Positions 3,262 through 39,848 are shown, numbered from the stretch's first letter. The stretch is 64,000 nt of DNA from a virus (IMGVR_UViG_3300026078_000029:3042-67041); one strand, 5' to 3'. Translations and numbers: made by a program. Notes: generated from the letters alone by a model not told the origin.

Positions 3262-3600
3262 ATGGCAACAGTATTAGCGGGTAATAAGAACAATATTTAC
3301 ACTTGGGCTTTAAGCACCTCAGCAAAGACCTTAACGTTTTCTAATATCACTGGCTTTGACCTTGAAATGTCTTCATTGCAAAGCGTGTGGAGTGTTACAG
3401 CAAATAAGTATTTGACTTTGGGGGTAAATGTTGTTTCGTGTGCCATTGTGTATGCAGCGGGGTTGCCTACCTATGTTTATACATTTACGGCGATTGACTC
3501 AGGGATAGCCAATTCTGACACTCTGATAATAAGGCTCCAAATTCCTGATGCGTATTTAGACTATTCAGTACTCCTATACATTGCTGGCGCAACTATTTAA
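3262..3600 (+). CDS. Putative virion structural protein
   Basis: Thr/Ser/Val-rich beta-type protein heading the tail operon, downstream of TATATTTAC promoter-like box. Confidence 0.45.
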   Translation: MATVLAGNKNNIYTWALSTSAKTLTFSNITGFDLEMSSLQSVWSVTANKYLTLGVNVVSCAIVYAAGLPTYVYTFTAIDSGIANSDTLIIRLQIPDAYLDYSVLLYIAGATI

Positions 3601-3611
3601 ACTATTAAGAA

Positions 3612-4070
3612 ATGGCAGTAGTAGCATCCATGTCGGTAAGTTCCAATGCAGCAGGCACAGTGCTGACCTTAAGCGACACGTCAACTGGTTTGGGTACAGT
3701 ATCAGCCCGTACATTCACCATATACAATTCATTAGGTGATTTGGTGCAGGTGATAGATTCGCCTACATCCGCCACAGCAGACTACGCAGTTACCGCAGAT
3801 GCTTATTGGTCATTCACGCTTGATGTTACCGATAATACAGGGACTTATCAGGCCGTGCGGAACTATTTAGCTAACGGCATCTATTTAAGCACATACGTGA
3901 ATGTCATAGCCCAATTAGGTTGTAGCTGCAATTGCGGTAGCGAGCAACTTACTTACGCCGATATTGCTGAATTGTATAACACATCGGCGTTACGCCTCGC
4001 TTTAGGTGGCTTCGGAAATGCCGCAAATAACGCCATTGTTGCCGCAAACGCTATAATTACAGGAAGCTAA
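3612..4070 (+). CDS. Putative tail/collar structural protein
   Basis: Ig-like N-terminal part plus CSCNC motif and helical C-terminus; coupled to next gene. Confidence 0.45.
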   Translation: MAVVASMSVSSNAAGTVLTLSDTSTGLGTVSARTFTIYNSLGDLVQVIDSPTSATADYAVTADAYWSFTLDVTDNTGTYQAVRNYLANGIYLSTYVNVIAQLGCSCNCGSEQLTYADIAELYNTSALRLALGGFGNAANNAIVAANAIITGS

Positions 4071-4843
4071 TGCCATCAGCGCAATCCATAGAAAATACCT
4101 TACTAAGTGCAAGTTTGCTCATGGCAAATCAGTGTACCGCTAATTTGGTGCAATTGAGTGTTGGTAATGATGAATTGAGTTGGGCAAGCATACGGAGGTT
4201 AAACAGGAATATTAATGCGCTTCAATACCAGTATAACACAGGCCAGTACGACGCAACGACTACGGTGGCCTTATACAACTGCCTTAACAGTTTAGTAGGC
4301 TTCGACACGACGATAAATAATCTTGACCCTAACTTCCAAAATTCAACTGTAGTGTATGATGTTACTGCGGTAACTAACGCGCAGGCTAATTATGACAGAA
4401 TTATATTTGAGAATGTCGATACGGTATCTTTAAGTGATTTTCAAGCGACCTACGTTGATAGATATGGCGATAATGCTATTGTTGAGCTTTTTGTGACTAC
4501 AGACGCATTTGCTACAGTGCAGCAAGATACGGGGACAGTGCCGACAATAGTAAATTTAGGCGGTGACGTAAATAAACCCGATAGTTATACTTGGACTTTT
4601 GGCATGCCGACTACCGGATATATACAAATAACAGGTTTTGTGCCGGAAAGCGCAAATATCGTTTCACCACCAATCACTAATACAAGCTCAGTATTGCTTG
4701 ACAATGCCACGTTAAATGGGTTATATCCAACCGCACTTTGGGGGCAACTCATATTATTGCCAAACGTGCCTGCTAAATACGAAAAACTTGATAATTCATC
4801 AACAGGACAATGGGACTTACAAACTTACACACCAAACTTATAG
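4070..4843 (+). CDS. Putative tail structural protein (fibre anchor?)
   Basis: TAATG coupling; composition and position before fibre genes. Confidence 0.4.
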   Translation: MPSAQSIENTLLSASLLMANQCTANLVQLSVGNDELSWASIRRLNRNINALQYQYNTGQYDATTTVALYNCLNSLVGFDTTINNLDPNFQNSTVVYDVTAVTNAQANYDRIIFENVDTVSLSDFQATYVDRYGDNAIVELFVTTDAFATVQQDTGTVPTIVNLGGDVNKPDSYTWTFGMPTTGYIQITGFVPESANIVSPPITNTSSVLLDNATLNGLYPTALWGQLILLPNVPAKYEKLDNSSTGQWDLQTYTPNL

Positions 4844-5946
4844 TCATACTTCTGTTGGTAACGTTGGGTGCGTCTGCCCAAACTACGATCATACCAGATA
4901 AGTTGCGCATTAAAACCGTTCCTCAATCACCTGTAAGCGGGGATATGATGGTTACTGTAGACGCGAGTGGTAATATCAAAAAAGACACTATTAAATCGGG
5001 TAGCACTACCACCCACTCACTGTCCTTCACATATGGATTTTTAGGGCAGCCTTTTTCCTTTAATGGCTCTGCGCCAGTCAGTAGTCAAATCGATACTACG
5101 AAGCTACAGACCATACTAAACTTTTTCCCAAAGGGAGATACGCGATACCTGAAAAGTTCAACAGCATCCACTACCTACGCTTTACAATCGACTACCATAA
5201 GCGCAGGAACGGGGCTAACTGGTGGCGGTTCGTTAGCGGCTAACAGGACTATTAGCAGTGATACATCCGTATTGAGGACAGTTGCTAACTCGTACTCGCT
5301 TTCAGGGATGCAGACGAAGTTGAATAACTATGCTTTACTGGCTTCTCCCGTACTTACAGGAACACCCACCGCTCCAACTGCCACAGTAGGAACAAATACT
5401 ACTCAGATAGCAACTACGGCTTTCGTATTGGCTAATTCAAGCACTGTTAGCGGGGCGAATCCTTCGGCGACAGCAGGTACAAGCGCTGTGAATGGATATG
5501 CTGCTACATTCATGCGTAGTGACGCTGCACCAAAGGTGGATAGTACGGTTTTTCAGACGGTAGCTAACTTCTTTCCAAAAGGGGATACACGGTACGCAAA
5601 GATAAGCGGCACGACAAACAATGTTAGTAGTATAAACGTACCGGGTTTAATTAATGTTAATCAATCCCTATCCTATAGTGTACCATCCGGTGGCGCTTTA
5701 TTAAGAATTAATCCATGGTCTTTTTATAGAACTGGAACTGGCTCTGTCGATGTGTCACTAACATATAATGATTTGGGCGGTTCGTCCCATACGGTATCTT
5801 TTGGAAGTATAAGTTCTGGCACTCCGGTTACTAATGCATCATCAACAATTATACAAGCTCAATCTTTAAGTACAATTCAAATATCTTGGACTGTTACTGG
5901 TACAATAACTTACGATGCGGCGGCTACAATTGAAAAATTACTGTAA
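4810..5946 (+). CDS. Tail-fibre-like protein with Sec signal peptide
   Basis: Signal peptide KLIVILLLVTLGASA/Q; phage fibre repeat ASPVLTGTPTAPTATVGTNTTQIATTAFV; AGTGLTGGGSLAANRTIS fibre motif; internal NFFPKGDTRY duplication. Confidence 0.7.
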   Translation: MGLTNLHTKLIVILLLVTLGASAQTTIIPDKLRIKTVPQSPVSGDMMVTVDASGNIKKDTIKSGSTTTHSLSFTYGFLGQPFSFNGSAPVSSQIDTTKLQTILNFFPKGDTRYLKSSTASTTYALQSTTISAGTGLTGGGSLAANRTISSDTSVLRTVANSYSLSGMQTKLNNYALLASPVLTGTPTAPTATVGTNTTQIATTAFVLANSSTVSGANPSATAGTSAVNGYAATFMRSDAAPKVDSTVFQTVANFFPKGDTRYAKISGTTNNVSSINVPGLINVNQSLSYSVPSGGALLRINPWSFYRTGTGSVDVSLTYNDLGGSSHTVSFGSISSGTPVTNASSTIIQAQSLSTIQISWTVTGTITYDAAATIEKLL

Positions 5947-8900
5947 ATGAAAAAGATTTTACTATATATACTGCTTTTACTACCTGCTTGGTGCTTCGCC
6001 CAACAAGCACAGCCCGTCAATCCTGTTCAAGTTACGCAGACTACGCTTTATAACGAGCCATCTACAGGCACTCGTTGGTGGTACAACGGTGCTACATTGG
6101 GTTGGTATCCGATATTTCCTTACAGTCCCCCAAATACCGTTCTAACTGGATTGGGAATGTCAGTAGTTTCGAGTACTCTGACTGTAGCTACTGGCACTTG
6201 GCGCATAAATAGTCAGGTTTACTCTTTATCTTCGCCTGCCAACTTTACATTACAAGCAAGAGACACCATTTATTCACGATACGAGACGGTATATGCTATT
6301 AAAGCGAATAATGGGATAGGGATAAAAGTAGGTCAGCTTTCTCCTACGCCCATACAGCCAACGGTAGGTGCTGATAGCCTTGTTGTTGGAGCGGCACTGA
6401 TTACACCCACTGTCACTATAGTTATTCCACCAGGGCCTTCCAATCAATTTGTATTCGCTATTCCGGGAGTGCAACAAAGCTACGCCAATCCTTGGGTAAG
6501 AACATTGAGAGCAGATACCATTAAAGTAGCAGGTAAATATATCTTTCCAAGCGTAGACGGCACATCAGCGCAGGTATTGCAAACGGATGGCTCGGGGCAT
6601 CTGTACTGGTCAAGTCAGGCAATCTATACGCCGGGATTTGGGTTAAATTTGAATGCGCAGGCATTTAGTGTAGATACAACTAAGATTGTAACCCTAACGG
6701 CAATGCTGGACACACTGCACAATAATGCAGCTCACTTTGACACTACCCAATTCAGCGTTGTGAATGATACGATACATTGTATAGCGTGTGGAGTTTCCGG
6801 CCCGACCATCTATACTGGTGACGGAACGTTAGCGTCAGATCGAACAGTTGCATTGAATAACCACTTCTTACAATTTACCGATACAAATTCGGGATATACA
6901 GGTAATTATAATTTCGGGAATAGTGGTTTTGTTGCTCATATAGATAATGGATCTGATAACGCCGAATTTAGTAGTTCTTCTGGCCCCGTGTCTGCCACCC
7001 TTGAGATAAATACCTTAAACCTGTCAAGCGGTAGAGGGTCATCTATACTTATGGGTAATTCCAATGACGGCATGAATATCCAACATCAGGACTACACATC
7101 AGGTCATCCCGTGCAAATTAGGTTAGGTGGAGACGGTCTCAGCGCATCGAATGCTATAGATAGTACTGGCATCCGGTATACATCATACACTGACTATTGG
7201 AGAGCCGACTCACTCACCTTAATGCCTAAACAATGGATTGAGGCTTATGTAGCTGCGCATAGCGGCGGCACAACTACAAATGCCGTTACTTTTAATAATT
7301 CAGGATCAGGAGCAGCAAGCGGAACTACATTCGATGGGTCATCAGCAAAAACGATAAGCTATAATACCATAGGCGCTCAGCAGACTTTAACGCTAACCAC
7401 AACGGGGACAAGCGGTGCGGCCACGTTGGTTAGTGGTACTTTAAATATACCGCAATATAGCGGAGCCACGGCAGGAAATCCGACCGGGTTACTAACCTTT
7501 ACAGCCGCAAACGGTACGGCCTCAACCTATAAGCGTTCAGACGGCCTAAATGCTATAGATAGTACGGTTGTAGCCAGTTATGCCAACCACCCTACCTTCG
7601 CACAATTACAGACGAAGGTAAATGGATATGTACCAACGTCTACAACAGTTGCGGGCTTCGCTCTTTCGTCAAATGTTACGTTAGCCAACCATGCACCTGG
7701 ATTCGGACTTTCGGGTTCTAACTACAATGGATCGGGGGCGCAGACGTGGATTGTCGATACTACGGCGATAGCTACTCCGTACTACGTGAAATGGGTGGCT
7801 GGCCCTGACGGCATTGTGAGCGGCATGTCTCCAACGACCATAAGCGGAACAACAGCTACTGTGCCATCCGGTGTATACAGGCTGAACAACTTGCTGATCA
7901 CTAAAGCTAGCAGCACGAATGTGACCATCGATGCGCAGGACGCTACTTTGAACAGGTATGATTTGATTGTTGGCGACGCATCTGGAGTACTGACTAAGGT
8001 ATCCGGTACACTTGGCACTGATGCTGCGCAGCCGGATGTCCCTGCAAATAAGGCACTGATAGCGTATATCTATATCCCTGCTACGGGCGGAACTGTAGTG
8101 AGCGGTGGAGGCGGCGGTAAAGGAACGACACAAAATGCACTTAGTGGCGGGTACGGAGTTGTACCGTTTACCTTCAATGGCGGTACGGCGGGAATCAAGG
8201 TAGTTGTGGATACGACGAGTTCAACAGGGTTGGTAAGCAAGGGGAGGTTGGCTACTAATTTAGGTGGCTATGTAAAAAGCGTTTCGGTAGCCTCTGCAAA
8301 CGGGCTAAGCGGCACTTCATCAGGTGGACAAACGCCATCGTTAACATTAACGTTAAGCACGATCAAACCTAACGTTGTCGCTCAAACTCCTGTGGGTACA
8401 GCAGGAACAGACTCTGTGATGGTAAAGCATAGTGATGGGACTATTAAAGCTATTAGCCCGACTTATTATGGGACGGGCGGAGGGTCTACTCTTACTTTTG
8501 GAACACACCTAACCAGCGGTGGCGCTTCTTATAACGGCTCTGCGCCGGTAACGATTACTTCTGATGCAACTAATGCAGCCACCGCAAGCACTATCATGTC
8601 CCGTGACGCAAATGCAAATGTAAATGCTAATAATTTAATATATAATTATACAACAACCGCGACAACAAATACTACTACCACATTAACTGTTTCGTCTGCC
8701 AAATTACAATATTTTACAGGGACACAGGCGCAAACCGTAGTGCTACCGAATGTATCCACTCTAGTCGTGGGTATGCGATATGAAATAGTTAGTCTACTGA
8801 CGGGGACTTCAACTATAAATGTACAATCATCTGGCGGTAATGCAATTGTATCCATAGCGGCAAATAACAATGCCGTTTTTACGGTAATAAGTACATCTGG

Positions 8901-9690
8901 AACCGGCGCATCTAGTTGGGCTTTTCAATATTTCCCATCTTTAGATAATACAGGATTATTAAATATAAATTCGTTAAATGCTTCTACGCAAATTGTTTCA
9001 GGATATATACTGGCTACATCAGCTCTTGAAACAGCAGGGAATCCAGCGAATACAAACTTCATGGCCACTGGTGGTGGCAGTATGGGAAGTGACAATACAA
9101 ATCCTACTTTCGGAGGGGCAACAAAAACATCTCAAAGAGTGATGTTTAATGGAGGCAGCACCGGAACTGTTCCCAATACAGATAATTATGCCAATGTAAT
9201 ATTTGGGTCTACGCCATTTTCAGTGGCCAATGCAACAACTATTCCATGGGGGACAAATGTAGCTATAAAAGCACCCGGAACAATAACGCTTTCAGGTACC
9301 GGTACTGTGACCAATACAGCTTCTCTATACATTGATGGAGTAAGTTCTACAGGAACAAATAATTATGCTGTATATGTAGCAAGCGGTAACACTAACGTAG
9401 CGTCATTAAACACCGCTTTTGTTTCTAAATCGGCAAATTATACGTTAACAGACAATGACTATAGCGTTCTATCGAGCGGAAGCGGAACAACTATCACATT
9501 ACCTACAGCAGTAGGCAGATTAGGGCGAATATATACGATTAAACGAAACGACGGTACTAATACACAGACAGTAGGAACAACAAGTTCCCAAACTATTGAT
9601 GGTTCAACAACTTATTCGCTTTCAGCGGATAAAAAATATGTTACCGTTCAAAGTGATAATGCAAACTGGTGGATTATAGCAAATAATTAA
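5947..9690 (+). CDS. Long tail-fibre-like/adhesin protein with Sec signal peptide
   Basis: MKKILLYILLLLPAWCFA/Q; fibre motifs DGTSAQVLQTDGSGHLYW and a C-terminal ITLPTAVG...YTIKR...TIDG...VQSDNANW domain; Gly/Thr/Ser-rich. Confidence 0.7.
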   Translation: MKKILLYILLLLPAWCFAQQAQPVNPVQVTQTTLYNEPSTGTRWWYNGATLGWYPIFPYSPPNTVLTGLGMSVVSSTLTVATGTWRINSQVYSLSSPANFTLQARDTIYSRYETVYAIKANNGIGIKVGQLSPTPIQPTVGADSLVVGAALITPTVTIVIPPGPSNQFVFAIPGVQQSYANPWVRTLRADTIKVAGKYIFPSVDGTSAQVLQTDGSGHLYWSSQAIYTPGFGLNLNAQAFSVDTTKIVTLTAMLDTLHNNAAHFDTTQFSVVNDTIHCIACGVSGPTIYTGDGTLASDRTVALNNHFLQFTDTNSGYTGNYNFGNSGFVAHIDNGSDNAEFSSSSGPVSATLEINTLNLSSGRGSSILMGNSNDGMNIQHQDYTSGHPVQIRLGGDGLSASNAIDSTGIRYTSYTDYWRADSLTLMPKQWIEAYVAAHSGGTTTNAVTFNNSGSGAASGTTFDGSSAKTISYNTIGAQQTLTLTTTGTSGAATLVSGTLNIPQYSGATAGNPTGLLTFTAANGTASTYKRSDGLNAIDSTVVASYANHPTFAQLQTKVNGYVPTSTTVAGFALSSNVTLANHAPGFGLSGSNYNGSGAQTWIVDTTAIATPYYVKWVAGPDGIVSGMSPTTISGTTATVPSGVYRLNNLLITKASSTNVTIDAQDATLNRYDLIVGDASGVLTKVSGTLGTDAAQPDVPANKALIAYIYIPATGGTVVSGGGGGKGTTQNALSGGYGVVPFTFNGGTAGIKVVVDTTSSTGLVSKGRLATNLGGYVKSVSVASANGLSGTSSGGQTPSLTLTLSTIKPNVVAQTPVGTAGTDSVMVKHSDGTIKAISPTYYGTGGGSTLTFGTHLTSGGASYNGSAPVTITSDATNAATASTIMSRDANANVNANNLIYNYTTTATTNTTTTLTVSSAKLQYFTGTQAQTVVLPNVSTLVVGMRYEIVSLLTGTSTINVQSSGGNAIVSIAANNNAVFTVISTSGTGASSWAFQYFPSLDNTGLLNINSLNASTQIVSGYILATSALETAGNPANTNFMATGGGSMGSDNTNPTFGGATKTSQRVMFNGGSTGTVPNTDNYANVIFGSTPFSVANATTIPWGTNVAIKAPGTITLSGTGTVTNTASLYIDGVSSTGTNNYAVYVASGNTNVASLNTAFVSKSANYTLTDNDYSVLSSGSGTTITLPTAVGRLGRIYTIKRNDGTNTQTVGTTSSQTIDGSTTYSLSADKKYVTVQSDNANWWIIANN

Positions 9691-9691
9691 C

Positions 9692-10057
9692 ATGAAAAAA
9701 TACATCACATTATTATTCCTGATAGCAGCTATCGGAGCAAGTGCGCAGACAAGGGTCACAAGCGTGGCTTTAGGCGATCAGATATGGCTACCGAGGGGCG
9801 CAGTTGAAATAGCACCTATTCCTATAAATATGGCAAAGGATTCTGTTAGAACGATGTCATATACCTTTCTTTCTCCGCGCGATACAACAGCCGTAACTAT
9901 AATAAGTGTTTTTGGTTATGATAAAAATGGAACAGCTATTTATAACACACAAATTTCATTAGTGGGTACAGCGTACCACAAATGGAAGTCGCTTATTACC
10001 CCTTTGGATAGCTACATATCCACACAGCTTAAACGAATAACTCAGTTAACCCAATGA
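9692..10057 (+). CDS. Small secreted protein (possible fibre chaperone)
   Basis: MKKYITLLFLIAAIGASA/Q signal peptide; directly follows fibre gene. Confidence 0.55.
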   Translation: MKKYITLLFLIAAIGASAQTRVTSVALGDQIWLPRGAVEIAPIPINMAKDSVRTMSYTFLSPRDTTAVTIISVFGYDKNGTAIYNTQISLVGTAYHKWKSLITPLDSYISTQLKRITQLTQ

Positions 10058-10248
10058 CCTTCACCACCATCATACAAGCCATCGACCCGCATACAGGCGA
10101 ATTCGCGGAGTACGCAGGCCCACTGATTGAGGCTGATAGTTGGGAGCAGGCACAGTTACGATGCGACACGCTTGGGTTAGGCTATTGCAAGGTTGATGGA
10201 GAATTTACAGGAGAACATACACATATTTTTAAACACGAACTAAATTAA
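10054..10248 (+). CDS. Hypothetical phage protein
   Basis: ATGA overlap; 64-aa ORF. Confidence 0.5.
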   Translation: MTFTTIIQAIDPHTGEFAEYAGPLIEADSWEQAQLRCDTLGLGYCKVDGEFTGEHTHIFKHELN

Positions 10249-10255
10249 AATCACA

Positions 10256-10420
10256 ATGGGAGACTTACAACAAATCATTAGCGACCTGATTAATCAGCAT
10301 GGTCAGGAAGCGGTACAAGAGGCGGTTAATAAGCATGTGGCGAATACAAGCGGGGCTACGCCTACCTGCCCAAAAGGCTATTACTGGAACGGCTCTGAAT
10401 GCGTTTTGGACGTAGGATGA
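10256..10420 (+). CDS. 54-aa peptide with C-terminal Cys loop (CPKGYYWNGSEC); absent from ORF track
   Basis: Translated by hand; A-rich leader; TGA overlaps ATG of next gene. Confidence 0.7.
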   Translation: MGDLQQIISDLINQHGQEAVQEAVNKHVANTSGATPTCPKGYYWNGSECVLDVG

Positions 10421-10788
10421 AGGCAAGGCTCATTATAACAACATTCGCGCTAATCTTATATCTGGCTTTGTTCAACCTGTATATATTTGAAATTAAGCGC
10501 CTCGATATTCAGTCCTATAAACTGTTTTACAATTACCTAACGGCAGGAATGACCGTTTTTTATGTAGCCGATTGGAAGGCAGGATTTGTAAATAGGTATC
10601 ACGAACATATAAATTTTATTTGTATATTGTGCGTATTAGTTAACTATTTAATAATAATCCTTACACATCACACAGTGTTACATCAAGATAAACCAATAGA
10701 GTTGTTCTATGCTTTTAACGGCTCGGTTTTTGCAGTTACGGTATTGATTGTTATTAACTTCATTAAGCATGGCTACTATAAAAGCTAA
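10417..10788 (+). CDS. Four-helix integral membrane protein
   Basis: Four hydrophobic stretches; ATGA-coupled to the peptide gene. Confidence 0.7.
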   Translation: MKARLIITTFALILYLALFNLYIFEIKRLDIQSYKLFYNYLTAGMTVFYVADWKAGFVNRYHEHINFICILCVLVNYLIIILTHHTVLHQDKPIELFYAFNGSVFAVTVLIVINFIKHGYYKS

Positions 10789-10789
10789 G

Positions 10790-11038
10790 ATGGCAAATTT
10801 ACCTATCCCTACTAATCAATGGTTGCAGCTTTTTGAAGACCTGTTGCCGTATTGTACCGTTTTTGGTTTATGTTGGAAAGCATTTGACCTTGTGTTTAAA
10901 TATTTTTCGGACAAGCAAAAGGAGGCCGTTAAGGAACTTATACGAACAGAAGTGAAGCCCGACATTGAAAGGCTGAACGGCAATTTTGAGAGTTTAGAGA
11001 AAGCTATTTGGGCCTTAGAGAAAAAGATCATATCATGA
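10790..11038 (+). CDS. Single-TM protein with C-terminal coiled coil (holin-like)
   Basis: LLPYCTVFGLCWKAFDLVF segment then heptad-rich tail. Confidence 0.5.
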   Translation: MANLPIPTNQWLQLFEDLLPYCTVFGLCWKAFDLVFKYFSDKQKEAVKELIRTEVKPDIERLNGNFESLEKAIWALEKKIIS

Positions 11039-11427
11039 AACTCAGCGTCCTTTGCCTCGATGACGAACCCGTAATCCTTGAATGGATGAGGCACGTATTT
11101 GAAGATGAGGTGTACGACCTGAAAACCTTCAAAGAGCCGCAGGAATTTATAGCTGCATTCACTGCCGACACCGACCTTGTCATTACCGATATGCGCGTAC
11201 CTGGTTACGACCTGTACTCTACGCTCGAACACTTCCACGAGATCAATAAGGGTGTTTACATTATTGTTATTTCGGCCTACTTCGACGATGCTATTTACGA
11301 ACGGCTGTTTGAACTTGGCGTTGACCGTGTGATACAAAAAAATAAGCCAGAATGGATTCATAAGATCGGGCAGTATGTCAATGAGCTGTTTCCACGTATC
11401 CATCAACGCGCGCAATTATCACAGTAA
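11035..11427 (+). CDS. Stand-alone CheY-like response regulator receiver domain
   Basis: LDDEP acidic pocket, ITDMRVPG phospho-acceptor Asp, ISAY switch Ser, IQK Lys all present. Confidence 0.9.
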   Translation: MKLSVLCLDDEPVILEWMRHVFEDEVYDLKTFKEPQEFIAAFTADTDLVITDMRVPGYDLYSTLEHFHEINKGVYIIVISAYFDDAIYERLFELGVDRVIQKNKPEWIHKIGQYVNELFPRIHQRAQLSQ

Positions 11428-11582
11428 TGGATGCGGGGCTTATTACTCTGGTTTTGGCTATCATAGGTTTTGCAGCAGGGTTTATTAAACTTTACGTAGA
11501 CAATGTGGATTTGAAAAGGGAGTTAGAACGAAAGGACGAGAAGATCGCTGAATTAAAAGAGTTTATAAAAGACTCGAAATGA
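11427..11582 (+). CDS. 51-aa single-TM plus coiled-coil protein; absent from ORF track
   Basis: MDAGLITLVLAIIGFAAGFIKLYVDNVDLKRELERKDEKIAELKEFIKDSK; TAATG-coupled. Confidence 0.65.
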   Translation: MDAGLITLVLAIIGFAAGFIKLYVDNVDLKRELERKDEKIAELKEFIKDSK

Positions 11583-11600
11583 ATTTGTAACTTTATTAGC

Positions 11601-13436
11601 ATGAAACGATTACTCTCCCTAATTATTTTCCTTCTCCCCCTATTCACCCATGCCCAATACATCTCCGGTTGCGGCCCGTACACCACTTCGGGGCCAATAA
11701 CACTCGCGTCTAATACCACAGTAAGCGGCAAGTTGATTGACCTCGCAGGCGCGAATACAGTAGGTATAACAGGCAACGGCGTTACCAACGTTCATATCAC
11801 CAAGTGTAAGATCATCAATAACACCAACTTCGGCATTTTACTTAATGGCTGTACCAATATCACAATTGACTCTTGCTATATTTCTAACGTTGGTTTCGGA
11901 GTATACGCGCAATCAGGGTCGTCGCAGATAAAAGTTAATGGCAATTACTTTCTGAATATCAACGGCATCAGCACCGCCTTTCTCGGGCATGCGGTTCAGT
12001 TTAATGGCGTTAATGGCGGTGGTAGCCAAATCAATAATAATAGGGTAGAGAACATTGCGGGCGTGGCAATCCATCCTCACGATATGCTGAACGTTTACCA
12101 ATCTAATGGCCTGCCGGGCGACTCCATACAGGTTATAGGAAACTGGGTAAGAGGAGGACAGTACTACTTCTGGCCAGACGCTAATAGTGGCGCAGCGGGG
12201 ATTATTATGGGGGATGTGGGCGGGTCATACCAAGTATGCAGGAATAACATACTCGTTAATACAGGATATTCCGGCATTCAATGCAACGGCACAGGAACGC
12301 ATATTAAGATTGATCATAACCAAATGTTCAGCACCTATGCGCCGGTATCGCATCAGGCAATCACTATTTTAGATGCTAATCAGATTGAATGCAGTTATAA
12401 CCAAACGAACTGGACGAACTATAATAACCTGAATGTGCTTTATTCAGACGGGGAGACGCAATACTACCTCGGGTCAACTCCGTCACCGACTCCTGTAGGC
12501 TTTGCTACCAATACTTGGAAAGCGAACATTACGGCGAATATTCTGCCATCTTCGCTGATTCCAGCCTGCGGGACTACGGCAACTCGGCCAAACATAGCAT
12601 ACAATCCGACTATCTACATCTTTACGGTTGGCGTTTCAGCATCCATAGGCGCGCCAACGAATAGTGGGGGCAATGGGACGTTTAGCGTATCGCCTGCGTT
12701 GCCTACTGGGCTTACATTGAGTTCTACGGGCGCAATCTCGGGAGTGCCGTCAGTGGCAACGGCGCAGGGGGTGTATACAGTTAGTTGTGTGAATAGCGGT
12801 GGCAGCAGCTCTGTCCCCTTGCAGATCACAATAAATAATCCTGTTGTAGCTGTTCCAAAAATAACGTACAATCCTAATACGGTAAATGTAACCGTTAGCA
12901 GCACTATACCGACCTTGAACCCTTCAAGCAGTGGGGGCGCGGTAGCAAGTTGGGGAATCTCACCATCTTTACCAAGCAATTTGACATTCGTTAACGGAGT
13001 AATTTCCGGGCAGGCTTTAACTACCCAGGCATCTACGCCATATGTTGTGAGCGCAACCAATGCAAGTGGCGTATCTAATGCCACCGTTTATATCCAGGTA
13101 AATCCGCAGCCTCCGTTAGCACCGTCAATAAGTTATCCGGCTTCGAGTTATGCATTACAACAGAATACAAGTATAACCATTCAGCCCACAAATAGTGGGG
13201 GAGTTGGGATGTATGCCGTTACGGCGGGGAGTCTTCCCGCTTCGTTGAGTCTAAATTCACAAACAGGCGTTATTCAAGGTAGTTTAACGGCCATACAGAG
13301 TCCGACGAATGTGACAATAACCTGTACGAATGCCACCGGCAGCAGCCCATTTGTAATTAGCTTTGGGGTTAATGCTGCACCGACCAATCACTGGTTTCTG
13401 ATCAACAATACATGGTTCGGGCCTGTGTTTCAGTAG
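11601..13436 (+). CDS. Secreted right-handed beta-helix protein with three putative Ig (He_PIG-like) domains; possible polysaccharide-binding/depolymerase
   Basis: Signal peptide MKRLLSLIIFLLPLFTHA/Q; Asn-ladder beta-helix repeats; three LP-x-x-L-x-x-x-x-G-x-I-x-G repeats. Confidence 0.75.
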   Translation: MKRLLSLIIFLLPLFTHAQYISGCGPYTTSGPITLASNTTVSGKLIDLAGANTVGITGNGVTNVHITKCKIINNTNFGILLNGCTNITIDSCYISNVGFGVYAQSGSSQIKVNGNYFLNINGISTAFLGHAVQFNGVNGGGSQINNNRVENIAGVAIHPHDMLNVYQSNGLPGDSIQVIGNWVRGGQYYFWPDANSGAAGIIMGDVGGSYQVCRNNILVNTGYSGIQCNGTGTHIKIDHNQMFSTYAPVSHQAITILDANQIECSYNQTNWTNYNNLNVLYSDGETQYYLGSTPSPTPVGFATNTWKANITANILPSSLIPACGTTATRPNIAYNPTIYIFTVGVSASIGAPTNSGGNGTFSVSPALPTGLTLSSTGAISGVPSVATAQGVYTVSCVNSGGSSSVPLQITINNPVVAVPKITYNPNTVNVTVSSTIPTLNPSSSGGAVASWGISPSLPSNLTFVNGVISGQALTTQASTPYVVSATNASGVSNATVYIQVNPQPPLAPSISYPASSYALQQNTSITIQPTNSGGVGMYAVTAGSLPASLSLNSQTGVIQGSLTAIQSPTNVTITCTNATGSSPFVISFGVNAAPTNHWFLINNTWFGPVFQ

Positions 13437-14393: not shown

Positions 14394-14486
14394 ATGGTAC
14401 TCACACTTTTCCTTATTGCATTTGCCCTGTTCATTTTCTTGACGGGCCTCTGTATGGAGTTGGATGAAAGGCAGGGGAGAAGATGA
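14394..14486 (+). CDS. 30-aa transmembrane peptide coupled to endolysin
   Basis: MVLTLFLIAFALFIFLTGLCMELDERQGRR; ATGA overlap with lysin start. Confidence 0.5.
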   Translation: MVLTLFLIAFALFIFLTGLCMELDERQGRR

Positions 14487-15115
14487 TACGCGGAACAGAC
14501 CGATCTCACTGGAATGCAAAAGTCTCGTTGTCCGATTTGGTAGCAAAAGGTGTAAAATTTATCTGGTTCAAATCAACTCAGGCAGACACCTACCAAGACC
14601 CGACGTTTAACACTTCATGGCAAGAGGCTAAAGCAACTACTGGCCTTATTCGAGGGGCCTATCATTTCTTTGACCCTCGTATTGACGGCATAATCCAGGC
14701 TAAGCATTATTTAGCTACAGGCATCAACTTTTCAAACGAGGGTTGCCTTATGCCTTGTGTTGACGTAGAAGACCTCACAGGCAGTGACGCGGCTCAAGCT
14801 AACAGATGGGTTGCTGTTAACTATAAGATCGCTATAACGCGCCTAAATGACTTCTTGGGCTATGTTAAAGAGCACACTAACAGGGATTGCATGATCTATA
14901 CGTACAATAACTATCCTAAAGAGTATTTTCACGGATATGGGTTTCCAGTTAACCCGATGTGGCTATCTTCGCTACAGACCAACTGTCCCAACCGATATGA
15001 TACCGGGAAGCAGCCTGAATTTTGGCAGTGGACGTACAATTGGAATGGGACGGATATGGATGGTAACTATTTTACAGGCACACAGGACGAGTTAAATAAA
15101 TTGGCAAACTTGTAG
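14483..15115 (+). CDS. GH25 muramidase endolysin
   Basis: GTDRSHWN, GAYHFF, DVE catalytic motif, FWQWT, DMDGN. Confidence 0.9.
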   Translation: MIRGTDRSHWNAKVSLSDLVAKGVKFIWFKSTQADTYQDPTFNTSWQEAKATTGLIRGAYHFFDPRIDGIIQAKHYLATGINFSNEGCLMPCVDVEDLTGSDAAQANRWVAVNYKIAITRLNDFLGYVKEHTNRDCMIYTYNNYPKEYFHGYGFPVNPMWLSSLQTNCPNRYDTGKQPEFWQWTYNWNGTDMDGNYFTGTQDELNKLANL

Positions 15116-15381: not shown

Positions 15382-16065
15382 TCAAGTTCCTTGCCATGCC
15401 GACCCCCAATTGCAACTATTATTGTCTTTTGGATATGGCAAAGGGGCGTGTTTTAGTTTATTAATAATATTCTTCCTTTGCTTTTTATGGAGTATATATA
15501 AATATCTGTGTTTTTTCTTGGTTTCAATTCTTCTATAATTTGGATCTATTTTAAGAAGTTCAACGGTATTGATAGTCCCAAATTTAGCCACTACACTTCT
15601 TGGATGCATTATTTCGCCGTTTATTTGATGTAAGTACCCTTTAATAAGCATCGTATTATTCCCTTGATAAATCCAATTAGTTGCTTGATAAATTACTCCA
15701 ACATGCCCAGCCATTGGGTCGGAATAGCTTATTAATACTTTTATTGATGTGTGCTGCCTTAGCCAATCAAATGTCATAGCTATAAAATGGGATTCTGAAT
15801 TTTTAGGTTCTTCGTCCCTTAGCCATAATCTTGTCAATTCCAATACCTCATTATTTTCAAGGTCTACAGTTATACTTTTCACGGTTTGGCGACCGATCGG
15901 GAAACCATATATGGCTATTCCGCATAGCTCGTCAATGTCATTGAATAGGCCTATTGAATATCTACATGAAGTCCATTTGTGAGAATAATGGTTTTTTATT
16001 ATAGTAGCTTTGGCTACTTCCTTATCTATAATGGAGATGTGATAATTCTTCATTAGTCCGGTCAT
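15382..16065 (-). CDS. mom: Mom-like adenine modification enzyme (GNAT-fold)
   Basis: NHYSHK, LELTRLWL, NSESHFI, LISYSDP..GHVGVIYQATNWIYQG motifs. Confidence 0.8.
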   Translation of the reverse strand: MTGLMKNYHISIIDKEVAKATIIKNHYSHKWTSCRYSIGLFNDIDELCGIAIYGFPIGRQTVKSITVDLENNEVLELTRLWLRDEEPKNSESHFIAMTFDWLRQHTSIKVLISYSDPMAGHVGVIYQATNWIYQGNNTMLIKGYLHQINGEIMHPRSVVAKFGTINTVELLKIDPNYRRIETKKKHRYLYILHKKQRKNIINKLKHAPLPYPKDNNSCNWGSAWQGT

Positions 16066-17067: not shown

Positions 17068-17358
17068 TTAATTTGTTGGTTTCTTAGGTTGCTCCTTAAC
17101 CGGATGAAATTTCATGTACTGACTGCGAAGCACAGAGTCTATGTGCAATACAGCCGCATGATAAGCATTGTAATCCTTCGTGCTAATCTTGTCGGAATTA
17201 CCCGCTGCGACTTCGCCAAAGTAGAGTAATTGGCTAATCTGGCTGACCTGGCTCTCTGTGAGCTTGTAGTACATAATCGGAGTGTCCTTTTTAGTTGTTT
17301 GCGCAAATCCGGCTAATGCTGCAAAAGCCAGAGCGAGTGTTATGGTGGTTCGTTTCAT
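17068..17358 (-). CDS. Small secreted protein
   Basis: MKRTTITLALAFAALAGFA/Q signal peptide. Confidence 0.6.
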   Translation of the reverse strand: MKRTTITLALAFAALAGFAQTTKKDTPIMYYKLTESQVSQISQLLYFGEVAAGNSDKISTKDYNAYHAAVLHIDSVLRSQYMKFHPVKEQPKKPTN

Positions 17359-37465: not shown

Positions 37466-37735
37466 ATGAGCATCATTTCACTAACACCAGAACAGCACGA
37501 GCTTCTTGTCAAAGGAGGTATGGAGCGTTTTTTTTCGCCTATGTCCACTGAAGATATGTACGAAATAATTCCGTTACATGCGCAGGAGGGCGGGGACGAC
37601 ATGGATATGTACTGTTATGAGCGAGAAGAAAGAGAGAAATGTTTGGATATAGCCTGCAATGTTCCGGTTAAAAGTTTGGACGAGTTATTTTCTAACGCTG
37701 AAAAGATTCGGGTGTGGTTGGAGGGTGGTATCTAA
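37466..37735 (+). CDS. Hypothetical protein
   Basis: First ORF after leader C. Confidence 0.5.
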   Translation: MSIISLTPEQHELLVKGGMERFFSPMSTEDMYEIIPLHAQEGGDDMDMYCYEREEREKCLDIACNVPVKSLDELFSNAEKIRVWLEGGI

Positions 37736-38436
37736 TGTGTGCGCTCCTGAGTATGTGCGCCTATTGCACCCCCGAAAATGGTAAAGAAAAGTACCTGATA
37801 CAGACGTTAGAATCGTTACGCGCTACCGTCAACTTTGATAAACATCGCCTAATTGTCATCAATAACGGTATGGATGTTCCATGTCTGCACCAAAACTGGT
37901 TCACACTATTGGAGTCCGACACGAACTTAGGGACAGCAGAAGGCATAAACAGGGGGCTTATACTTCGTGAGTATGGCGAGCCATTTGTAAAATGCGACGA
38001 TGATTGGACGACGGAACACGTAGGGTGGGTTGATGATATGGTTCGAGTGCTATGCGAGCATTCTGGGATTGGTATACTTGGCCTAAAGCGTGACGATGTG
38101 TACGGCGAGTTAATTGAGGATGGGGAATTGCTTTGGAACTCGGACATAATGGGGACTTGCACAATGTTTCAGCCGGAGATGTTGGAGAAAGTTGGCTACA
38201 TGTGGAGTCCTGGGGTATATGGATATGATGACGTCACGATGTCAGTGAGGTCTGAGTGCGCAGGGTTTAAGAACGCCTTCATGAAAAACATACGCATAAC
38301 TAACCTTGACGAGGGTGGAACTTTGTTCACGGAGTGGAAGAAAAGAGAGGCCAGCGAGCATATGAATGAGGTATCTATAGTGTGTGATAAGTATAGGGAC
38401 GGAACGTTGGGTGTTTATTATAATCCGTTTGAGTGA
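37735..38436 (+). CDS. GT-A (GT2-like) glycosyltransferase
   Basis: IVINNG, NLGTAEGINRG, KCDDD, GYDDV motifs. Confidence 0.8.
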   Translation: MCALLSMCAYCTPENGKEKYLIQTLESLRATVNFDKHRLIVINNGMDVPCLHQNWFTLLESDTNLGTAEGINRGLILREYGEPFVKCDDDWTTEHVGWVDDMVRVLCEHSGIGILGLKRDDVYGELIEDGELLWNSDIMGTCTMFQPEMLEKVGYMWSPGVYGYDDVTMSVRSECAGFKNAFMKNIRITNLDEGGTLFTEWKKREASEHMNEVSIVCDKYRDGTLGVYYNPFE

Positions 38437-39047
38437 TGATCGAAGGAGATAGTGGTGAATACGAATTTCTAACTGAAGCTGTGCGCTTATCTGCTAACAT
38501 TGATGCGCCTACGGTTGAAATTGGCGTACGATCAGGACTTGGAAGTGCTACTATGATGGATGCTATAGTTGAATATTGTCCAGGTAAAACTCACATCGGT
38601 ATCGATCCTTACGGAAGCATCTTATACGCAATGAAAGAGAACATCGAACCGTGTCGGTTGGATTATACAAACGACATGTACAAGCAATGCATGGTAGATT
38701 TGTTTACGCATATCATTGGTAAACCGGTGGAGTTTGTTCATTTTAAGATGACTGATATTGAATATTTTGAACGATTTAGTGATGACACTCCCATTTATTG
38801 CACTAACGAATATTATTACAAAATTTATTCATGTGTGCATTTTGATGGGCCGCATACTGCCGATGCTGCTCTTTCTGAAGTTCATTTTTTCCATTACCGT
38901 ACTCCATCTGGAGCAACCTTCGTATTCGATGATATTGGCGTTGAGGACTTTTTCTATACGCATTCTCGCGTACACGATTGGTTGTTAAAACATGGGTGGG
39001 AATGTTTAAAAACGGGGGTTAAGAAGGCTTTATATCAGAAAAAATGA
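38433..39047 (+). CDS. Class I SAM methyltransferase (Methyltransf_24/TylF-like)
   Basis: VEIGVRSG, GIDPY, VHFDGPH, VFDD. Confidence 0.8.
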   Translation: MMIEGDSGEYEFLTEAVRLSANIDAPTVEIGVRSGLGSATMMDAIVEYCPGKTHIGIDPYGSILYAMKENIEPCRLDYTNDMYKQCMVDLFTHIIGKPVEFVHFKMTDIEYFERFSDDTPIYCTNEYYYKIYSCVHFDGPHTADAALSEVHFFHYRTPSGATFVFDDIGVEDFFYTHSRVHDWLLKHGWECLKTGVKKALYQKK

Positions 39048-39202
39048 GAATTTTACAATTTATAGTATGGATGCTATACGGAATCACATTAGGAATGATG
39101 ATTGGCGACAGAGGTATTTGGACTGGAATTCCTGTTATTATAGGTTTAACCATATCAATAACTGCACTTATAATAAAATTAAATCCTAATGACCAACATT
39201 AA
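39044..39202 (+). CDS. 52-aa two-TM protein
   Basis: Translated by hand; ATGA-coupled. Confidence 0.5.
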   Translation: MRILQFIVWMLYGITLGMMIGDRGIWTGIPVIIGLTISITALIIKLNPNDQH

Positions 39203-39848
39203 ACTCATAACCGTATGCTCCCACCCTGAACACGCCGAAGCGCTGAGAAGAAGTGCGGAGTTGCATAATTGGGATTTCGTGTGCATTCACGTTCCTGAAT
39301 GGAAGGGGTTTGGGATGAAACTTATTGAAACATACAACTATCTAAAGGCGCATCCTGAAGTAGAACGGTTTGTTTTTTGTGATGCTTTTGATGTAGTGGT
39401 ATTTGGGACGCCGGAGGAGTTTGAGGAGAAACATATTTGGCATGACAATATGCTATTATCTTGTGAACGTGGGCTGTGGCCTCCAATATTACATCCATTT
39501 AAAGAAAGGTATATTGAGTATAAGCACAGGTTTAATTATATTAATAGTGGTTTGTATTACTCACCTTCAGGCACTTTCATTAGCTTAGTAGAGAAATACA
39601 AGCCAAGTTTCGATACAGACGATCAGTATTGGATGAATATGGTTTACCTATTTGAAGGGATGGATTTAAACATAATGGAAGATAGTTGCCAAAGAGTTTT
39701 TAACTCTCATAGTTTTATAGATGAGGGGCAGTATGGGTATGATGGGGGTCGTATTCAAATAATGAATTGCGAACCGGTGTTCGTTCACTCGAACGGAAGA
39801 TCAGTTGATCCGAAATTAGATGAATTAGTAAAGGAGATGTTGGGATGA
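39189..39848 (+). CDS. PLOD/procollagen-galactosyltransferase-like glycosyltransferase
   Basis: FVFCDAFDV, LSCE..LWP, YINSGLY, DDQYW, VHSNG motifs. Confidence 0.75.
   Translation: MTNIKLITVCSHPEHAEALRRSAELHNWDFVCIHVPEWKGFGMKLIETYNYLKAHPEVERFVFCDAFDVVVFGTPEEFEEKHIWHDNMLLSCERGLWPPILHPFKERYIEYKHRFNYINSGLYYSPSGTFISLVEKYKPSFDTDDQYWMNMVYLFEGMDLNIMEDSCQRVFNSHSFIDEGQYGYDGGRIQIMNCEPVFVHSNGRSVDPKLDELVKEMLG

What the first reader, a model, noticed from the sequence alone, without database searches (positions are those of the whole stretch)
4810..10057. Tail-fibre-like proteins carrying Sec signal peptides: virion parts routed through the periplasm?
Seen: three consecutive tail-operon genes (4810, 5947, 9692) each begin with a signal peptide ending A-x-A/Q. 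Two also contain canonical fibre motifs (ASPVLTGTPTAPTA..TNTTQIATTAFV; AGTGLTGGG.L..NRTI; QVLQTDGSG.L.W). Established: tailed-phage fibres normally fold and assemble in the cytoplasm, and Gln at +1 is the Bacteroidota SPase I pattern that yields pyroglutamate. Inference: these fibres are exported and matured in the periplasm, then either join the virion at or after lysis or act as phage-encoded surface adhesins. The upstream tail proteins (3262-4843) lack signal peptides and could be the docking site.
Basis: partly seen in the sequence, partly recalled or inferred. Interest (0 to 1): 0.85.

Follow-up and report, generated by a model that had tools for sequence, protein, structure and literature searches.

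The report
Phage tail fibres carrying export signals
A complete 67-kb short-tailed phage of Bacteroidota puts its host's secretion signal on its tail-fibre proteins, so its host-recognition parts probably mature outside the cytoplasm where phage particles are built.

Summary
By a crude home-made signal-peptide test, 4 of 55 non-nested ORFs of at least 100 aa pass, and all four have Gln at +1. The signals are kept in relatives: 20 of 23 representatives of fibre 2, and all six related viral loci. The proteins are real receptor-binding parts. Fibre 1 matches tail-fibre PHROGs. Fibre 2 has a shoulder domain like those of phage p2, 1358 and Mtd. Both have a conserved start and a swappable distal part, and both have signal-less homologues.

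No T9SS C-terminal domain was found, so the periplasm is the expected destination. In the cultured Cellulophaga phage phi18:3, three analogous but not homologous signal-bearing proteins are annotated as found in virions by MS/MS.

My best reading (about 0.5) is export, cleavage before Gln, folding in the periplasm, and docking onto particles at lysis. Export and docking are inferred. Sequon evidence is mixed.

This scan has noted the same theme on other DNA. My literature searches found no paper describing it. Interest 0.7.

The parts
3262..3600 (+). 112-aa signal-less protein, first gene of the fibre operon; candidate tail adaptor part
   Evidence: ORF. It fails the signal test. Counterparts of 111-189 aa lie at or near this position in L007-L009, and L004-L006 have a single 165-aa ORF in place of the two small genes. 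No Pfam or PHROG match.
3612..4070 (+). 152-aa signal-less protein, conserved neighbour
   Evidence: 151-152 aa counterparts in L007-L009; L004-L006 have one 165-aa ORF in place of the two small genes. No family match above cut-off.
4070..4843 (+). 257-aa signal-less protein; candidate docking adaptor. Its last 62 residues occur only where fibre 1 is present
   Evidence: Alignment: the extension is present in the window, L004, L005 and L007 (L006 carries a 261-aa ORF with the same start as L005 but was not aligned); all of these have fibre 1. It is absent in L008 and L009, which lack fibre 1. No signal.
4810..4878 (+). Signal peptide of fibre 1 (23 codons, cleavage predicted between A-S-A and Q)
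   Evidence: The same N-terminus is kept in L004, L005, L006, L007 and P0122-P0124.
4810..5946 (+). Fibre 1 (378 aa): signal, then a conserved anchor of about 40 residues, then a common tail-fibre core, then a variable distal part
   Evidence: PHROG tail-fibre hits on residues 118-263. Alignment (relatives are 440-648 aa with unrelated distal parts). 1915 homologues at E<=0.001, and of the best 120 only 6 pass the signal test.
5947..6000 (+). Signal peptide of fibre 2 (18 codons, cleavage predicted between F-A and Q-Q)
   Evidence: 20 of 23 representatives with the N-domain at the protein start pass the test.
5947..9690 (+). Fibre 2 (1247 aa): signal, conserved N-terminal segment, receptor-binding-protein shoulder domain (about residues 58-166, nt 6118-6444), repeat motif, long variable shaft and tip
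   Evidence: Model (model residues 50-140 at pLDDT 80-94). VIA-align (SPP1 gp22 Z 8.4, Mtd 8.1, phage 1358 RBP 7.2, p2 RBP 6.7, TssK 6.3). BFVD gave 65 hits at E<=0.001, many named receptor binding protein or minor tail protein. Modular conservation is shown.
9692..10057 (+). 121-aa protein with signal peptide (18 codons); phage-specific family of unknown fold, partner or accessory of the fibres (inferred)
   Evidence: Family members in L007, L008, L009 and P0378 at 39-50% identity, all with a signal and Q-T at the cleavage site. The nearest ESM Atlas clusters are viral and unnamed. The model has low confidence, pLDDT 60.5.
10399..10788 (+). 129-aa multi-pass membrane protein following the fibre genes
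   Evidence: translation. ORFs of 122-129 aa lie at this position in L005, L006, L007 and L009. No family match. A role in lysis is inference.
11601..13436 (+). 611-aa exported beta-helix enzyme (probable polysaccharide depolymerase) with three Ig-like He_PIG repeats. The signal covers the first 18 codons (11601-11654), and there are 10 Cys
   Evidence: Pfam Beta_helix 2e-11 and He_PIG 3.5e-18. Signal. Relatives with a signal and the same Cys-containing mature start are found in 5 of the 5 loci that reach this far. Cys count.
14483..15115 (+). GH25 endolysin without signal peptide, so lysis needs a holin and the virions wait in the cytoplasm
   Evidence: Pfam Glyco_hydro_25 1.5e-31. PHROG endolysin families. 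It does not pass the signal test.

Best explanation
The window is almost the whole genome of an uncultured podovirus of Bacteroidota. Its receptor-binding cassette consists of fibre 1, fibre 2, a 121-aa accessory protein and a beta-helix enzyme. The four proteins are made as Sec pre-proteins.

Shown here:
- All four carry conserved signal peptides of the Bacteroidota SPase I/Q-rule type.
- Fibres 1 and 2 are true tail-fibre/receptor-binding proteins, each with a conserved N-terminal anchor that begins exactly at the predicted cleavage site and a swappable distal part.
- Signal-less homologues of both exist.
- No T9SS C-terminal domain is present.
- The endolysin has no signal.

Inferred:
- Late in infection the four proteins cross the inner membrane.
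- They are cleaved before Gln, which the host cyclase turns into pyroglutamate.
- They fold and trimerise in the periplasm. The beta-helix enzyme would form disulfides, and fibre 2 may receive the host O-glycan.
- They wait there while fibre-less particles are completed in the cytoplasm.
- When holin and endolysin break the envelope, the two pools mix, and the fibres dock by their N-terminal anchor and shoulder domain onto signal-less adaptor proteins of the tail (genes 3262-4843).
- The beta-helix enzyme has no N-terminal anchor and may act as a free depolymerase instead.
For: Signals. 4 of 55 ORFs pass the signal test, all with Gln at +1 and all within 4810-13436. 20 of 23 representative homologues of fibre 2 keep the signal; of the other three, one is truncated and one is signal-like but has zero net charge. 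All six related loci carry signals on every gene in this position. The signal codons are under purifying selection, with 9 synonymous against 5 non-synonymous changes.

Fibre identity. PHROG tail-fibre hits. The shoulder-domain fold: the top 11 VIA rows are all phage receptor-binding proteins, phage tail or baseplate proteins, or TssK, at Z 5.2-8.4, and the next rows fall to 4.8 (IglD) and 3.8. 65 BFVD hits. Conserved N-terminus with variable distal parts.

Docking. The C-terminal extension of the 257-aa protein co-occurs with fibre 1: present in the window, L004, L005 and L007, absent in L008 and L009.

Compartment. No T9SS domain at E<=1. The endolysin has no signal.

Precedent in culture. 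Phi18:3 gp085-087 start with Q-rule signals and are annotated 'structural protein, experimental MS/MS'. Phi46:3 has five such genes in a row.

Sequons. D-[ST]-[AILVMT] occurs 254 times against 97.2 expected in the fibre 2 family, while control motifs lie at 0.77-1.28 times expectation. Homologues with a signal and Gln are at 1.80 times expectation; signal-less ones are at 0.91.

Literature. The Q-rule and its stabilising effect: PMC5837995 and PMC10653852 (listing with start of abstracts). O-glycosylation occurs only on non-cytoplasmic proteins: PMC12871550 (passages).
Against: Nothing here shows export, cleavage or presence in the virion for this phage.
- The signal test is my own crude one, not SignalP.
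- The phi18:3 proteins are analogous, not homologous. An MS/MS annotation cannot tell whether the signal is removed, or whether the proteins merely co-purify.
- A related cultured phage, phi40:1, has MS-annotated fibres without signals. So do signal-less homologues of the shoulder domain. The cytoplasmic route therefore works for the same fold.
- The sequon evidence is mixed. The enrichment sits mostly in the shared N-part (6.7 times expectation, against 1.42 elsewhere), so the family members are not independent. At least two sequon aspartates are structural and also occur in signal-less homologues. The beta-helix proteins are not enriched. The signal-bearing proteins of phi18:3 and phi46:3 are depleted, at 0.31 and 0.19 times expectation.
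- Other receptor-binding proteins without signals in the tail module (for example 54407-55588 and 57131-61048) are not excluded.
Confidence: 0.5

Rival explanations
1. The proteins are exported but are not virion parts. They act in the periplasm or, after lysis, in the medium. Possible roles are free depolymerase, receptor-masking or exclusion factors, decoys that stop progeny sticking to debris, or adhesins. The particle would use other, signal-less proteins to bind its host.
For: The beta-helix enzyme starts its catalytic fold right after the signal and has no N-terminal anchor. It lies apart from the fibre operon, close to the lysis genes. The 121-aa protein has no recognisable fibre feature. 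Other candidate tail proteins exist. P. gingivalis prophages carry Q-rule proteins that the authors read as modifiers of the host envelope (PMC10367356, passages). The repeat motif of fibre 2 (residues 186-235) also occurs in giant signal-bearing cellular proteins: 47 of 127 other hits pass the signal test, 33 of them with Gln at +1.
Against: Fibres 1 and 2 have the build of virion-anchored receptor-binding proteins: a conserved N-terminal anchor, a shoulder domain and exchangeable tips. They are translationally coupled to signal-less genes, one of which co-varies with fibre 1. The analogous proteins of phi18:3 are annotated as MS-detected in virions. No outer-membrane route was found.
Confidence: 0.2
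2. The hydrophobic N-termini are not used for export in the infected cell. The fibres stay in the cytoplasm or tethered to its face of the inner membrane. They assemble on the particle in the usual way, and the N-terminal segment is buried, removed by another protease, or serves as a temporary membrane tether.
For: This would remove the compartment problem. Signal-less homologues of both fibres assemble by the ordinary route. Nothing here measures export.
Against: Apart from one truncated start, every signal-type N-terminus of the fibre 2 family keeps small residues at -3/-1 and Gln at +1, as does every signal-bearing gene in the six related loci. That makes sense only if SPase I cuts there and the new end is cyclised. 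The h-regions are short (about 10-13 residues), which is typical of cleaved signals and not of membrane anchors. Sequons are enriched in the signal-plus-Gln homologues only.
Confidence: 0.15
3. Artefact: the true starts lie downstream, or the resemblance to signal peptides is chance.
For: Fibre 1 has an invariant Met-Met at residues 46-47 that could serve as an extra internal start.
Against: Residues 1-45 of fibre 1 and 1-60 of fibre 2 are conserved as protein, with an excess of synonymous changes. Fibre 2 has no Met between residues 1 and 71. Only 4 of 55 ORFs pass the test and they are clustered.
Confidence: 0.02

Closest known systems
Cellulophaga phages phi18:3 (gp085-087) and phi46:3 (gp079-083), family Pachyviridae
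   Same: These are podoviruses of Flavobacteriia whose portal is distantly related to the one here. Each has a run of large fibre/lyase-type genes, every one starting with a Q-rule signal peptide, followed by small membrane proteins and a signal-less endolysin. The phi18:3 proteins are annotated as found in virions by MS/MS.
   Different: There is no detectable sequence similarity to the proteins here beyond the signal itself. The cassette sits before the terminase gene and not after the giant internal protein gene. Their sequons are depleted, not enriched. The records do not mention the signals.
Shoulder domain of receptor-binding proteins of siphoviruses (lactococcal phages p2 and 1358), SPP1 gp22, Bordetella phage Mtd, and the N-domain of T6SS TssK
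   Same: The same beta-sandwich fold, placed near the N-terminus (Z 6.3-8.4, 93-102 residues aligned, rmsd 2.9-3.6 A). In p2 and TssK this domain fixes the trimer to the baseplate; that statement is recalled from the literature, not from a call.
   Different: Those proteins have no signal peptide and assemble in the cytoplasm. Sequence identity is 6-12%. Here the domain follows a signal and a 40-residue segment.
Bacteroidota Q-rule substrates of signal peptidase I (PMC5837995, PMC10653852)
   Same: Signal peptide ending in small residues with Gln at +1; the host cyclase makes pyroglutamate, which stabilises extracytoplasmic proteins (start of abstracts).
   Different: The described substrates are cellular proteins; here they are structural-type proteins of a lytic tailed phage.
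Q-rule proteins of unknown function in Porphyromonas gingivalis prophages (PMC10367356)
   Same: Phage-encoded proteins with Q-rule signals, noted in print (passages).
   Different: There are five genes of unknown function in temperate siphovirus-type prophages, read as modifiers of the host outer membrane. They are not described as tail fibres or virion parts.
Late addition of tailspikes or fibres to finished particles (P22 tailspike, T4 long fibres) and Sec-exported or SAR endolysins
   Same: Receptor-binding proteins can join complete particles as the last step, even in vitro, and some phage late proteins do use the host Sec system. Both statements are recalled, not from a call.
   Different: In those phages the fibres are cytoplasmic, and the exported proteins are lysis enzymes, not virion parts.

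Membership tests
Sec/SPase I signal peptide of the Bacteroidota Q-rule type | Positive n-region, hydrophobic h-region of about 7-15 residues, small residues at -3 and -1 | tested here: met
   My own crude test: 4 of 55 ORFs pass. SignalP was not available.
Sec/SPase I signal peptide of the Bacteroidota Q-rule type | Gln at +1 | tested here: met
   All 4 proteins in the window; the 20 passing representatives of fibre 2 plus P0016; every signal-bearing gene in the six loci.
Sec/SPase I signal peptide of the Bacteroidota Q-rule type | Kept in relatives while the residues vary | tested here: met
   9 synonymous against 5 non-synonymous changes in the signal codons.
Sec/SPase I signal peptide of the Bacteroidota Q-rule type | Actual export, cleavage and pyroglutamate formation | not testable with these tools
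   Needs N-terminal proteomics or reporter fusions.
Phage tail fibre / receptor-binding protein | Sequence or fold match to known fibre or receptor-binding modules | tested here: met
   Fibre 1: PHROG tail-fibre families, best 7.6e-12. Fibre 2: shoulder fold at Z up to 8.4 and 65 BFVD hits. The 121-aa protein has no match.
Phage tail fibre / receptor-binding protein | Conserved N-terminal attachment part with exchangeable distal part | tested here: met
   Fibre 2: 68-73% identity over residues 1-279, then unrelated sequence. Fibre 1: the first 66 residues are conserved and the rest is unrelated.
Phage tail fibre / receptor-binding protein | Presence in the virion | not testable with these tools
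   There is only an analogy: the phi18:3 gp085-087 MS/MS annotation.
T9SS cargo (surface display or secretion in Bacteroidota) | C-terminal sorting domain (type A or B) | tested here: not met
   No NCBIfam family at E<=1 and no Pfam family at E<=0.01 on the C-termini of the four proteins. This was a sequence-profile search only.
Lipoprotein (SPase II substrate) | Lipobox with Cys at +1 | tested here: not met
   +1 is Gln in all four. The one Cys near the site in fibre 2 is at -3 and is Val in L004.
Bacteroidota O-glycoprotein | Excess of the D-[ST]-[AILVMT] sequon on an exported protein | tested here: inconclusive
   Fibre 2: 13 against 5.3 expected, p about 0.0015. Family: 2.61 times expectation. 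The excess tracks signal plus Gln. But it is concentrated in the shared N-part, is partly structural, is absent in the beta-helix proteins, and is reversed in phi18:3 and phi46:3.
Crassvirales-like / flavobacterial podoviruses | Related terminase, portal and muzzle-type tail protein; giant internal proteins | tested here: inconclusive
   TerL phrog_6681 2.3e-51 and portal phrog_6547 2.5e-58. crAss_MUZ_C at 27.1 bits against a cut-off of 27. The portal is 21-26% identical to 87 phage records, all but one from Flavobacteriia hosts. No family assignment was attempted.

The most novel reading that the evidence does not exclude
In a broad set of podoviruses of Bacteroidota (Pachyviridae, relatives of this phage, crAss-like phages), the last step of virion assembly happens outside the cytoplasm. 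Fibre-less particles receive receptor-binding proteins that were exported by Sec, capped with pyroglutamate and perhaps glycosylated in the periplasm, and the two meet only when the cell lyses. The phage's own glycosyltransferase/methyltransferase cluster (37714-41833) might even tailor the glycan.
Probability: 0.4. Interest if true: 0.85.

Novelty: new variant of a known kind. Interest (0 to 1): 0.7.

Why it matters
Tailed phages are taken to build the whole virion in the cytoplasm, and the lack of signal peptides has even been used as an argument that a binding protein is of phage origin (PMC6199706, passage). A conserved export signal on true tail fibres would mean a two-compartment assembly route. 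It would give phage receptor-binding proteins access to host periplasmic chemistry: pyroglutamate capping, disulfides and O-glycans. It would also change how these proteins should be expressed for structural work, host-range engineering or depolymerase use, namely without the signal or in the periplasm. Finally, the Q-rule signal is a simple sequence marker that assigns uncultured phages to Bacteroidota hosts. Cultured Cellulophaga phages make the idea directly testable.

Tried and rejected
- Complex prediction on the 257-aa protein plus fibre 1 residues 24-100 gave no verdict: score 0.00 against a mark of 0.32, and the controls were not run. It counts neither for nor against docking.
- The model of the 121-aa protein had pLDDT 60.5. 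I ran no fold search on it because low-confidence models give meaningless matches. The ESM Atlas gave only unnamed viral clusters for it, and only sub-0.8 leads for the 257-aa protein.
- No similarity was found in the 50,697 phage records for the region (DNA), fibre 1, fibre 2 or the fibre 2 N-part (the last returned a single E=0.3 row).
- The PDB sequence search gave nothing for fibre 2, or for the 1305-aa and 393-aa tail proteins. Fibre 1 gave one weak row, 9d93 tail collar fibre, E 0.0026.
- Foldseek against the PDB gave no row at E<=0.001. VIA-align was needed.
- The genome-contig scan with the fibre 2 alignment found no relative, so I have no named host genome.
- The promoter, terminator and TAnnTTTG scans did not define the operon: 25 promoter-like sites against 34.7 in shuffles, and 84 against 72.4 for the box.
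- The viral-contig scan with P0295 returned only C-terminal motif matches.
- The listing of cluster members gave no names.
- Literature searches that found no description of signal peptides on tailed-phage fibres. One search was wasted, because 'crass' matched oysters and Neurospora.
- Holmfeldt et al. 2013, the source of the phi18:3 MS/MS annotation, is not held. The DOI and PMC id I tried were recalled.
- In one search I left the two shortest family members (P0253, P0258) out of the 23. In one search only plus-strand ORFs of at least 100 aa were listed. In L008 and L009 the longest-ORF rule overshoots the MKK start of fibre 2, which I then set by eye.

Full report
WHAT THE WINDOW IS. The window is bases 3042-67041 of a 67,041-base virus record that CheckV rates 100% complete. 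The last 126 bases repeat bases 6-131, so the record closes into a circle or is terminally redundant. It encodes a large terminase (phrog_6681, 2.3e-51), a portal (phrog_6547, 2.5e-58) and a protein with a borderline crassvirus muzzle C-domain (27.1 bits, cut-off 27). Read across the junction, it also has a 506-aa and a 1612-aa internal-type protein. The portal finds 87 phage records at 21-26% identity: 68 Flavobacterium, 15 Cellulophaga, 2 Tenacibaculum, 1 Maribacter and 1 uncultured. I read it as a podovirus of a Bacteroidota host. No named host genome was found.

THE OBSERVATION. Genes 3262, 3612, 4070, 4810, 5947, 9692 and 10054 are packed with overlaps or gaps of 0-12 nt. No convincing terminator lies inside this run. 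A crude signal-peptide test that I wrote looks for a hydrophobic 9-residue window, net positive charge before it, and small residues at -3/-1. It passes 4 of 55 non-nested ORFs of at least 100 aa, all four with Gln at +1: 4810, 5947, 9692 and 11601.

The starts are not artefacts. The first residues are invariant in alignments. The conserved mature sequence starts at the predicted cleavage site. The signal codons of fibre 2 show 9 synonymous against 5 non-synonymous differences between the window and L005.

CONSERVATION. Six related viral loci were fetched; L005 and L006 are near-identical. All keep the same order: a roughly 500-aa protein, a giant protein, small signal-less proteins (two, or one 165-aa ORF in L004-L006), a 192-261-aa signal-less protein, then two or three signal-bearing proteins, a membrane protein, a signal-bearing beta-helix protein, and in the loci that reach that far an endolysin-type gene. 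Every signal-bearing gene has Gln at +1.

Fibre 1 is present in L004-L007 and absent in L008 and L009. Its 34-nt overlap with the upstream gene has the same length in L004, L005 and L007.

I searched the first 300 residues of fibre 2 against 1.84 billion representatives and got 823 hits at E<=0.001. In 23 of the 150 listed, the N-domain sits at the protein start. Of these, 20 pass the signal test. Of the other three, one is truncated inside the signal, one looks like a signal but has zero net charge, and one has none.

WHAT THE PROTEINS ARE. Fibre 1 matches 8 PHROGs, 6 of them named tail fibre or tail protein, through residues 118-263. It has 1915 homologues at E<=0.001. Of the best 120, only 6 pass the signal test, and 4 of those are its close kin. 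Its core is therefore the ordinary, signal-less tail-fibre module. Its first 66 residues (signal plus anchor) are conserved, while the distal parts of relatives are unrelated and 440-648 aa long.

Fibre 2 has no Pfam or PHROG match. A model of residues 19-300 from 20 sequences has mean pLDDT 66, with 80-94 over model residues 50-140. It contains a beta-sandwich. The best 11 structural neighbours of that sandwich among 48,161 chains are all phage receptor-binding proteins, phage tail or baseplate proteins, or TssK: SPP1 gp22 (Z 8.4), Mtd (8.1), Haloferax virus fibre (7.5), cyanophage A-1(L) fibre (7.3), phage 1358 RBP (7.2), p2 RBP (6.7) and TssK (6.3). The next rows drop to 4.8 (IglD) and 3.8. 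These Z values are middling by the tool's own note, but the list is uniform. BFVD gives 65 hits at E<=0.001, many named receptor binding protein or minor tail protein. This is the shoulder domain.

The N-part of fibre 2 is 68-73% identical to L004 and L005 over residues 1-279, after which the proteins are unrelated.

The same shoulder domain occurs in proteins that start with an ordinary signal-less 45-residue segment. One such locus, L024 on a 100-kb viral contig, has a signal-less fibre and signal-less neighbours in a similar gene order.

The 121-aa protein belongs to a small phage-only family. Its fold was not resolved.

WHERE THEY WOULD GO. None of the four has a T9SS C-terminal domain at E<=1 or a lipobox. 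Sec export would therefore leave them in the periplasm. The GH25 endolysin (1.5e-31) has no signal, so lysis needs a holin and particles wait in the cytoplasm.

A DOCKING CANDIDATE. The 257-aa signal-less protein has a well-conserved 62-residue C-terminal extension in the window, L004, L005 and L007, all of which have fibre 1. The extension is missing in L008 and L009, which lack fibre 1; L006 was not in the alignment. This fits an adaptor, but physical linkage of the two gene segments could give the same pattern.

A CULTURED PRECEDENT. In Cellulophaga phage phi18:3 (Pachyviridae), gp085, gp086 and gp087 (547, 785 and 559 aa) each begin with a Q-rule signal. They are annotated 'structural protein, annotation based on experimental MS/MS proteomics analysis'. 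Small membrane proteins and a signal-less glycosyl hydrolase follow them. Phi46:3 has five such genes in a row, annotated virion structural protein, pectate lyase and tail fiber protein. They share nothing with the proteins here beyond the signal, so this is analogy. A third relative, phi40:1 (Pervagoviridae), has MS-annotated fibres without signals. Both routes therefore exist among these phages.

SEQUONS. The host O-glycosylation motif D-[ST]-[AILVMT] (PMC8550257, start of abstract) marks only non-cytoplasmic proteins (PMC12871550, passages).
- Fibre 2 has 13 sequons against 5.3 expected (p about 0.0015). Fibre 1 has 3 against 1.8, the 121-aa protein 2 against 0.5, and the beta-helix protein 1 against 0.8. 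Signal-less virion proteins are at or below expectation.
- Across 23 fibre 2 relatives there are 254 against 97.2, with 21 of 23 individually below p 0.05. Control motifs lie at 0.77, 1.28 and 1.04 times expectation.
- Among 155 homologues, those with a signal and Gln are at 1.80 times expectation (n=57), those with a signal but no Gln at 0.84 (n=14), and those without a signal at 0.91 (n=84).
- Other signal-bearing proteins of the loci are at 1.77 (n=17) and signal-less neighbours at 0.64 (n=23).

Against this reading:
- The excess is mostly in the shared N-part, 6.7 times expectation against 1.42 elsewhere.
- Some sequon aspartates are also present in signal-less homologues.
- The signal-bearing proteins of phi18:3 and phi46:3 are depleted, at 0.31 and 0.19.

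I treat glycosylation as open.

MECHANISM. I commit to the following. The four proteins are Sec substrates cleaved before Gln. They mature in the periplasm. Fibres 1 and 2 join fibre-less particles when lysis mixes the compartments, docking through the anchor and shoulder onto the signal-less proteins encoded just upstream. The beta-helix enzyme may stay free. The signals, the fibre identity and the lack of an outer-membrane route are shown. Export, cleavage, timing and docking are inferred. I put this at about 0.5. The rivals are exported but not virion-bound (0.2), not exported at all (0.15), and artefact (0.02); the remainder is unassigned.

WHAT IS KNOWN. In the held library I found no paper that describes signal peptides on fibres of tailed phages.
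- The nearest is Matrishin et al. 2023, which reports five Q-rule genes of unknown function in P. gingivalis prophages, read as envelope modifiers (PMC10367356, passages).
- Benler et al. 2018 used the absence of signals as support for phage origin of binding proteins (PMC6199706, passage).
- Gilbert et al. 2017 counted two and one signal peptides in two Bacteroides phages without naming the proteins (PMC5723332, passages).

This scan has reported the same theme on other DNA. One of those notes gave me the lead to phi18:3, which I checked myself. Another note covers the sequons on this same stretch.

VERDICT. This is a new variant of a known kind: tail fibres with an export signal. Interest 0.7.

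Noticed in passing
window 11008-11427 (+): A stand-alone response-regulator receiver domain (Pfam Response_reg, 54.6 bits, 1.4e-14) encoded between the fibre operon and the beta-helix gene, with no kinase seen nearby. A 139-aa counterpart with a near-identical start lies in L007.
   Followed up: partly
window 37714-41833 (+): A cluster just upstream of the packaging genes contains a PLOD-type glycosyltransferase domain (48.3 bits) and two Methyltransf_24 proteins, one with a weak rhamnosyl O-methyltransferase match. A small hydrophobic ORF (39845-40066) lies between them. It might modify a glycan; any link to the exported fibres is speculation.
   Followed up: partly
window 15382-16065 (-): A Mom-family protein (Pfam PF25680, 195 bits), pointing to a DNA modification function.
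   Followed up: no
window 17068-17358 (-): A fifth Q-rule signal peptide, on a 96-aa protein in the leftward (early-looking) gene block. It might be an exported exclusion or envelope-modifying factor.
   Followed up: no
window 45278, 48542, 54395, 57119, 61956 (+): The Bacteroidota -7 box TAnnTTTG (mostly TATATTTG) ends 4-5 nt before the ATG of five late genes. Over the whole window the motif is not enriched (84 against 72.4 in shuffles).
   Followed up: partly
L005 6878-9181, L009 14220-14582, L008 14568-14942, L003 34544-36901 (phi18:3 gp086): Several unrelated signal-bearing proteins begin their mature part with a similar short strand-like motif, Q-T-x-(I/K)-K-(I/V)-K. It could be a shared docking strand or only a common first beta-strand.
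   Followed up: no
record ends (window 63870-64000 and the 131 bases at the record start): A 126-base direct repeat at the two ends of a record classed as linear. The first 5 bases of the record do not match, which looks like an assembly end effect.
   Followed up: yes
L003, L023 (phi18:3, phi46:3): The signal-bearing fibre proteins of these cultured phages carry far fewer O-glycosylation sequons than chance (3 against 9.7, and 3 against 15.5). This is the opposite of the fibre 2 family here.
   Followed up: partly
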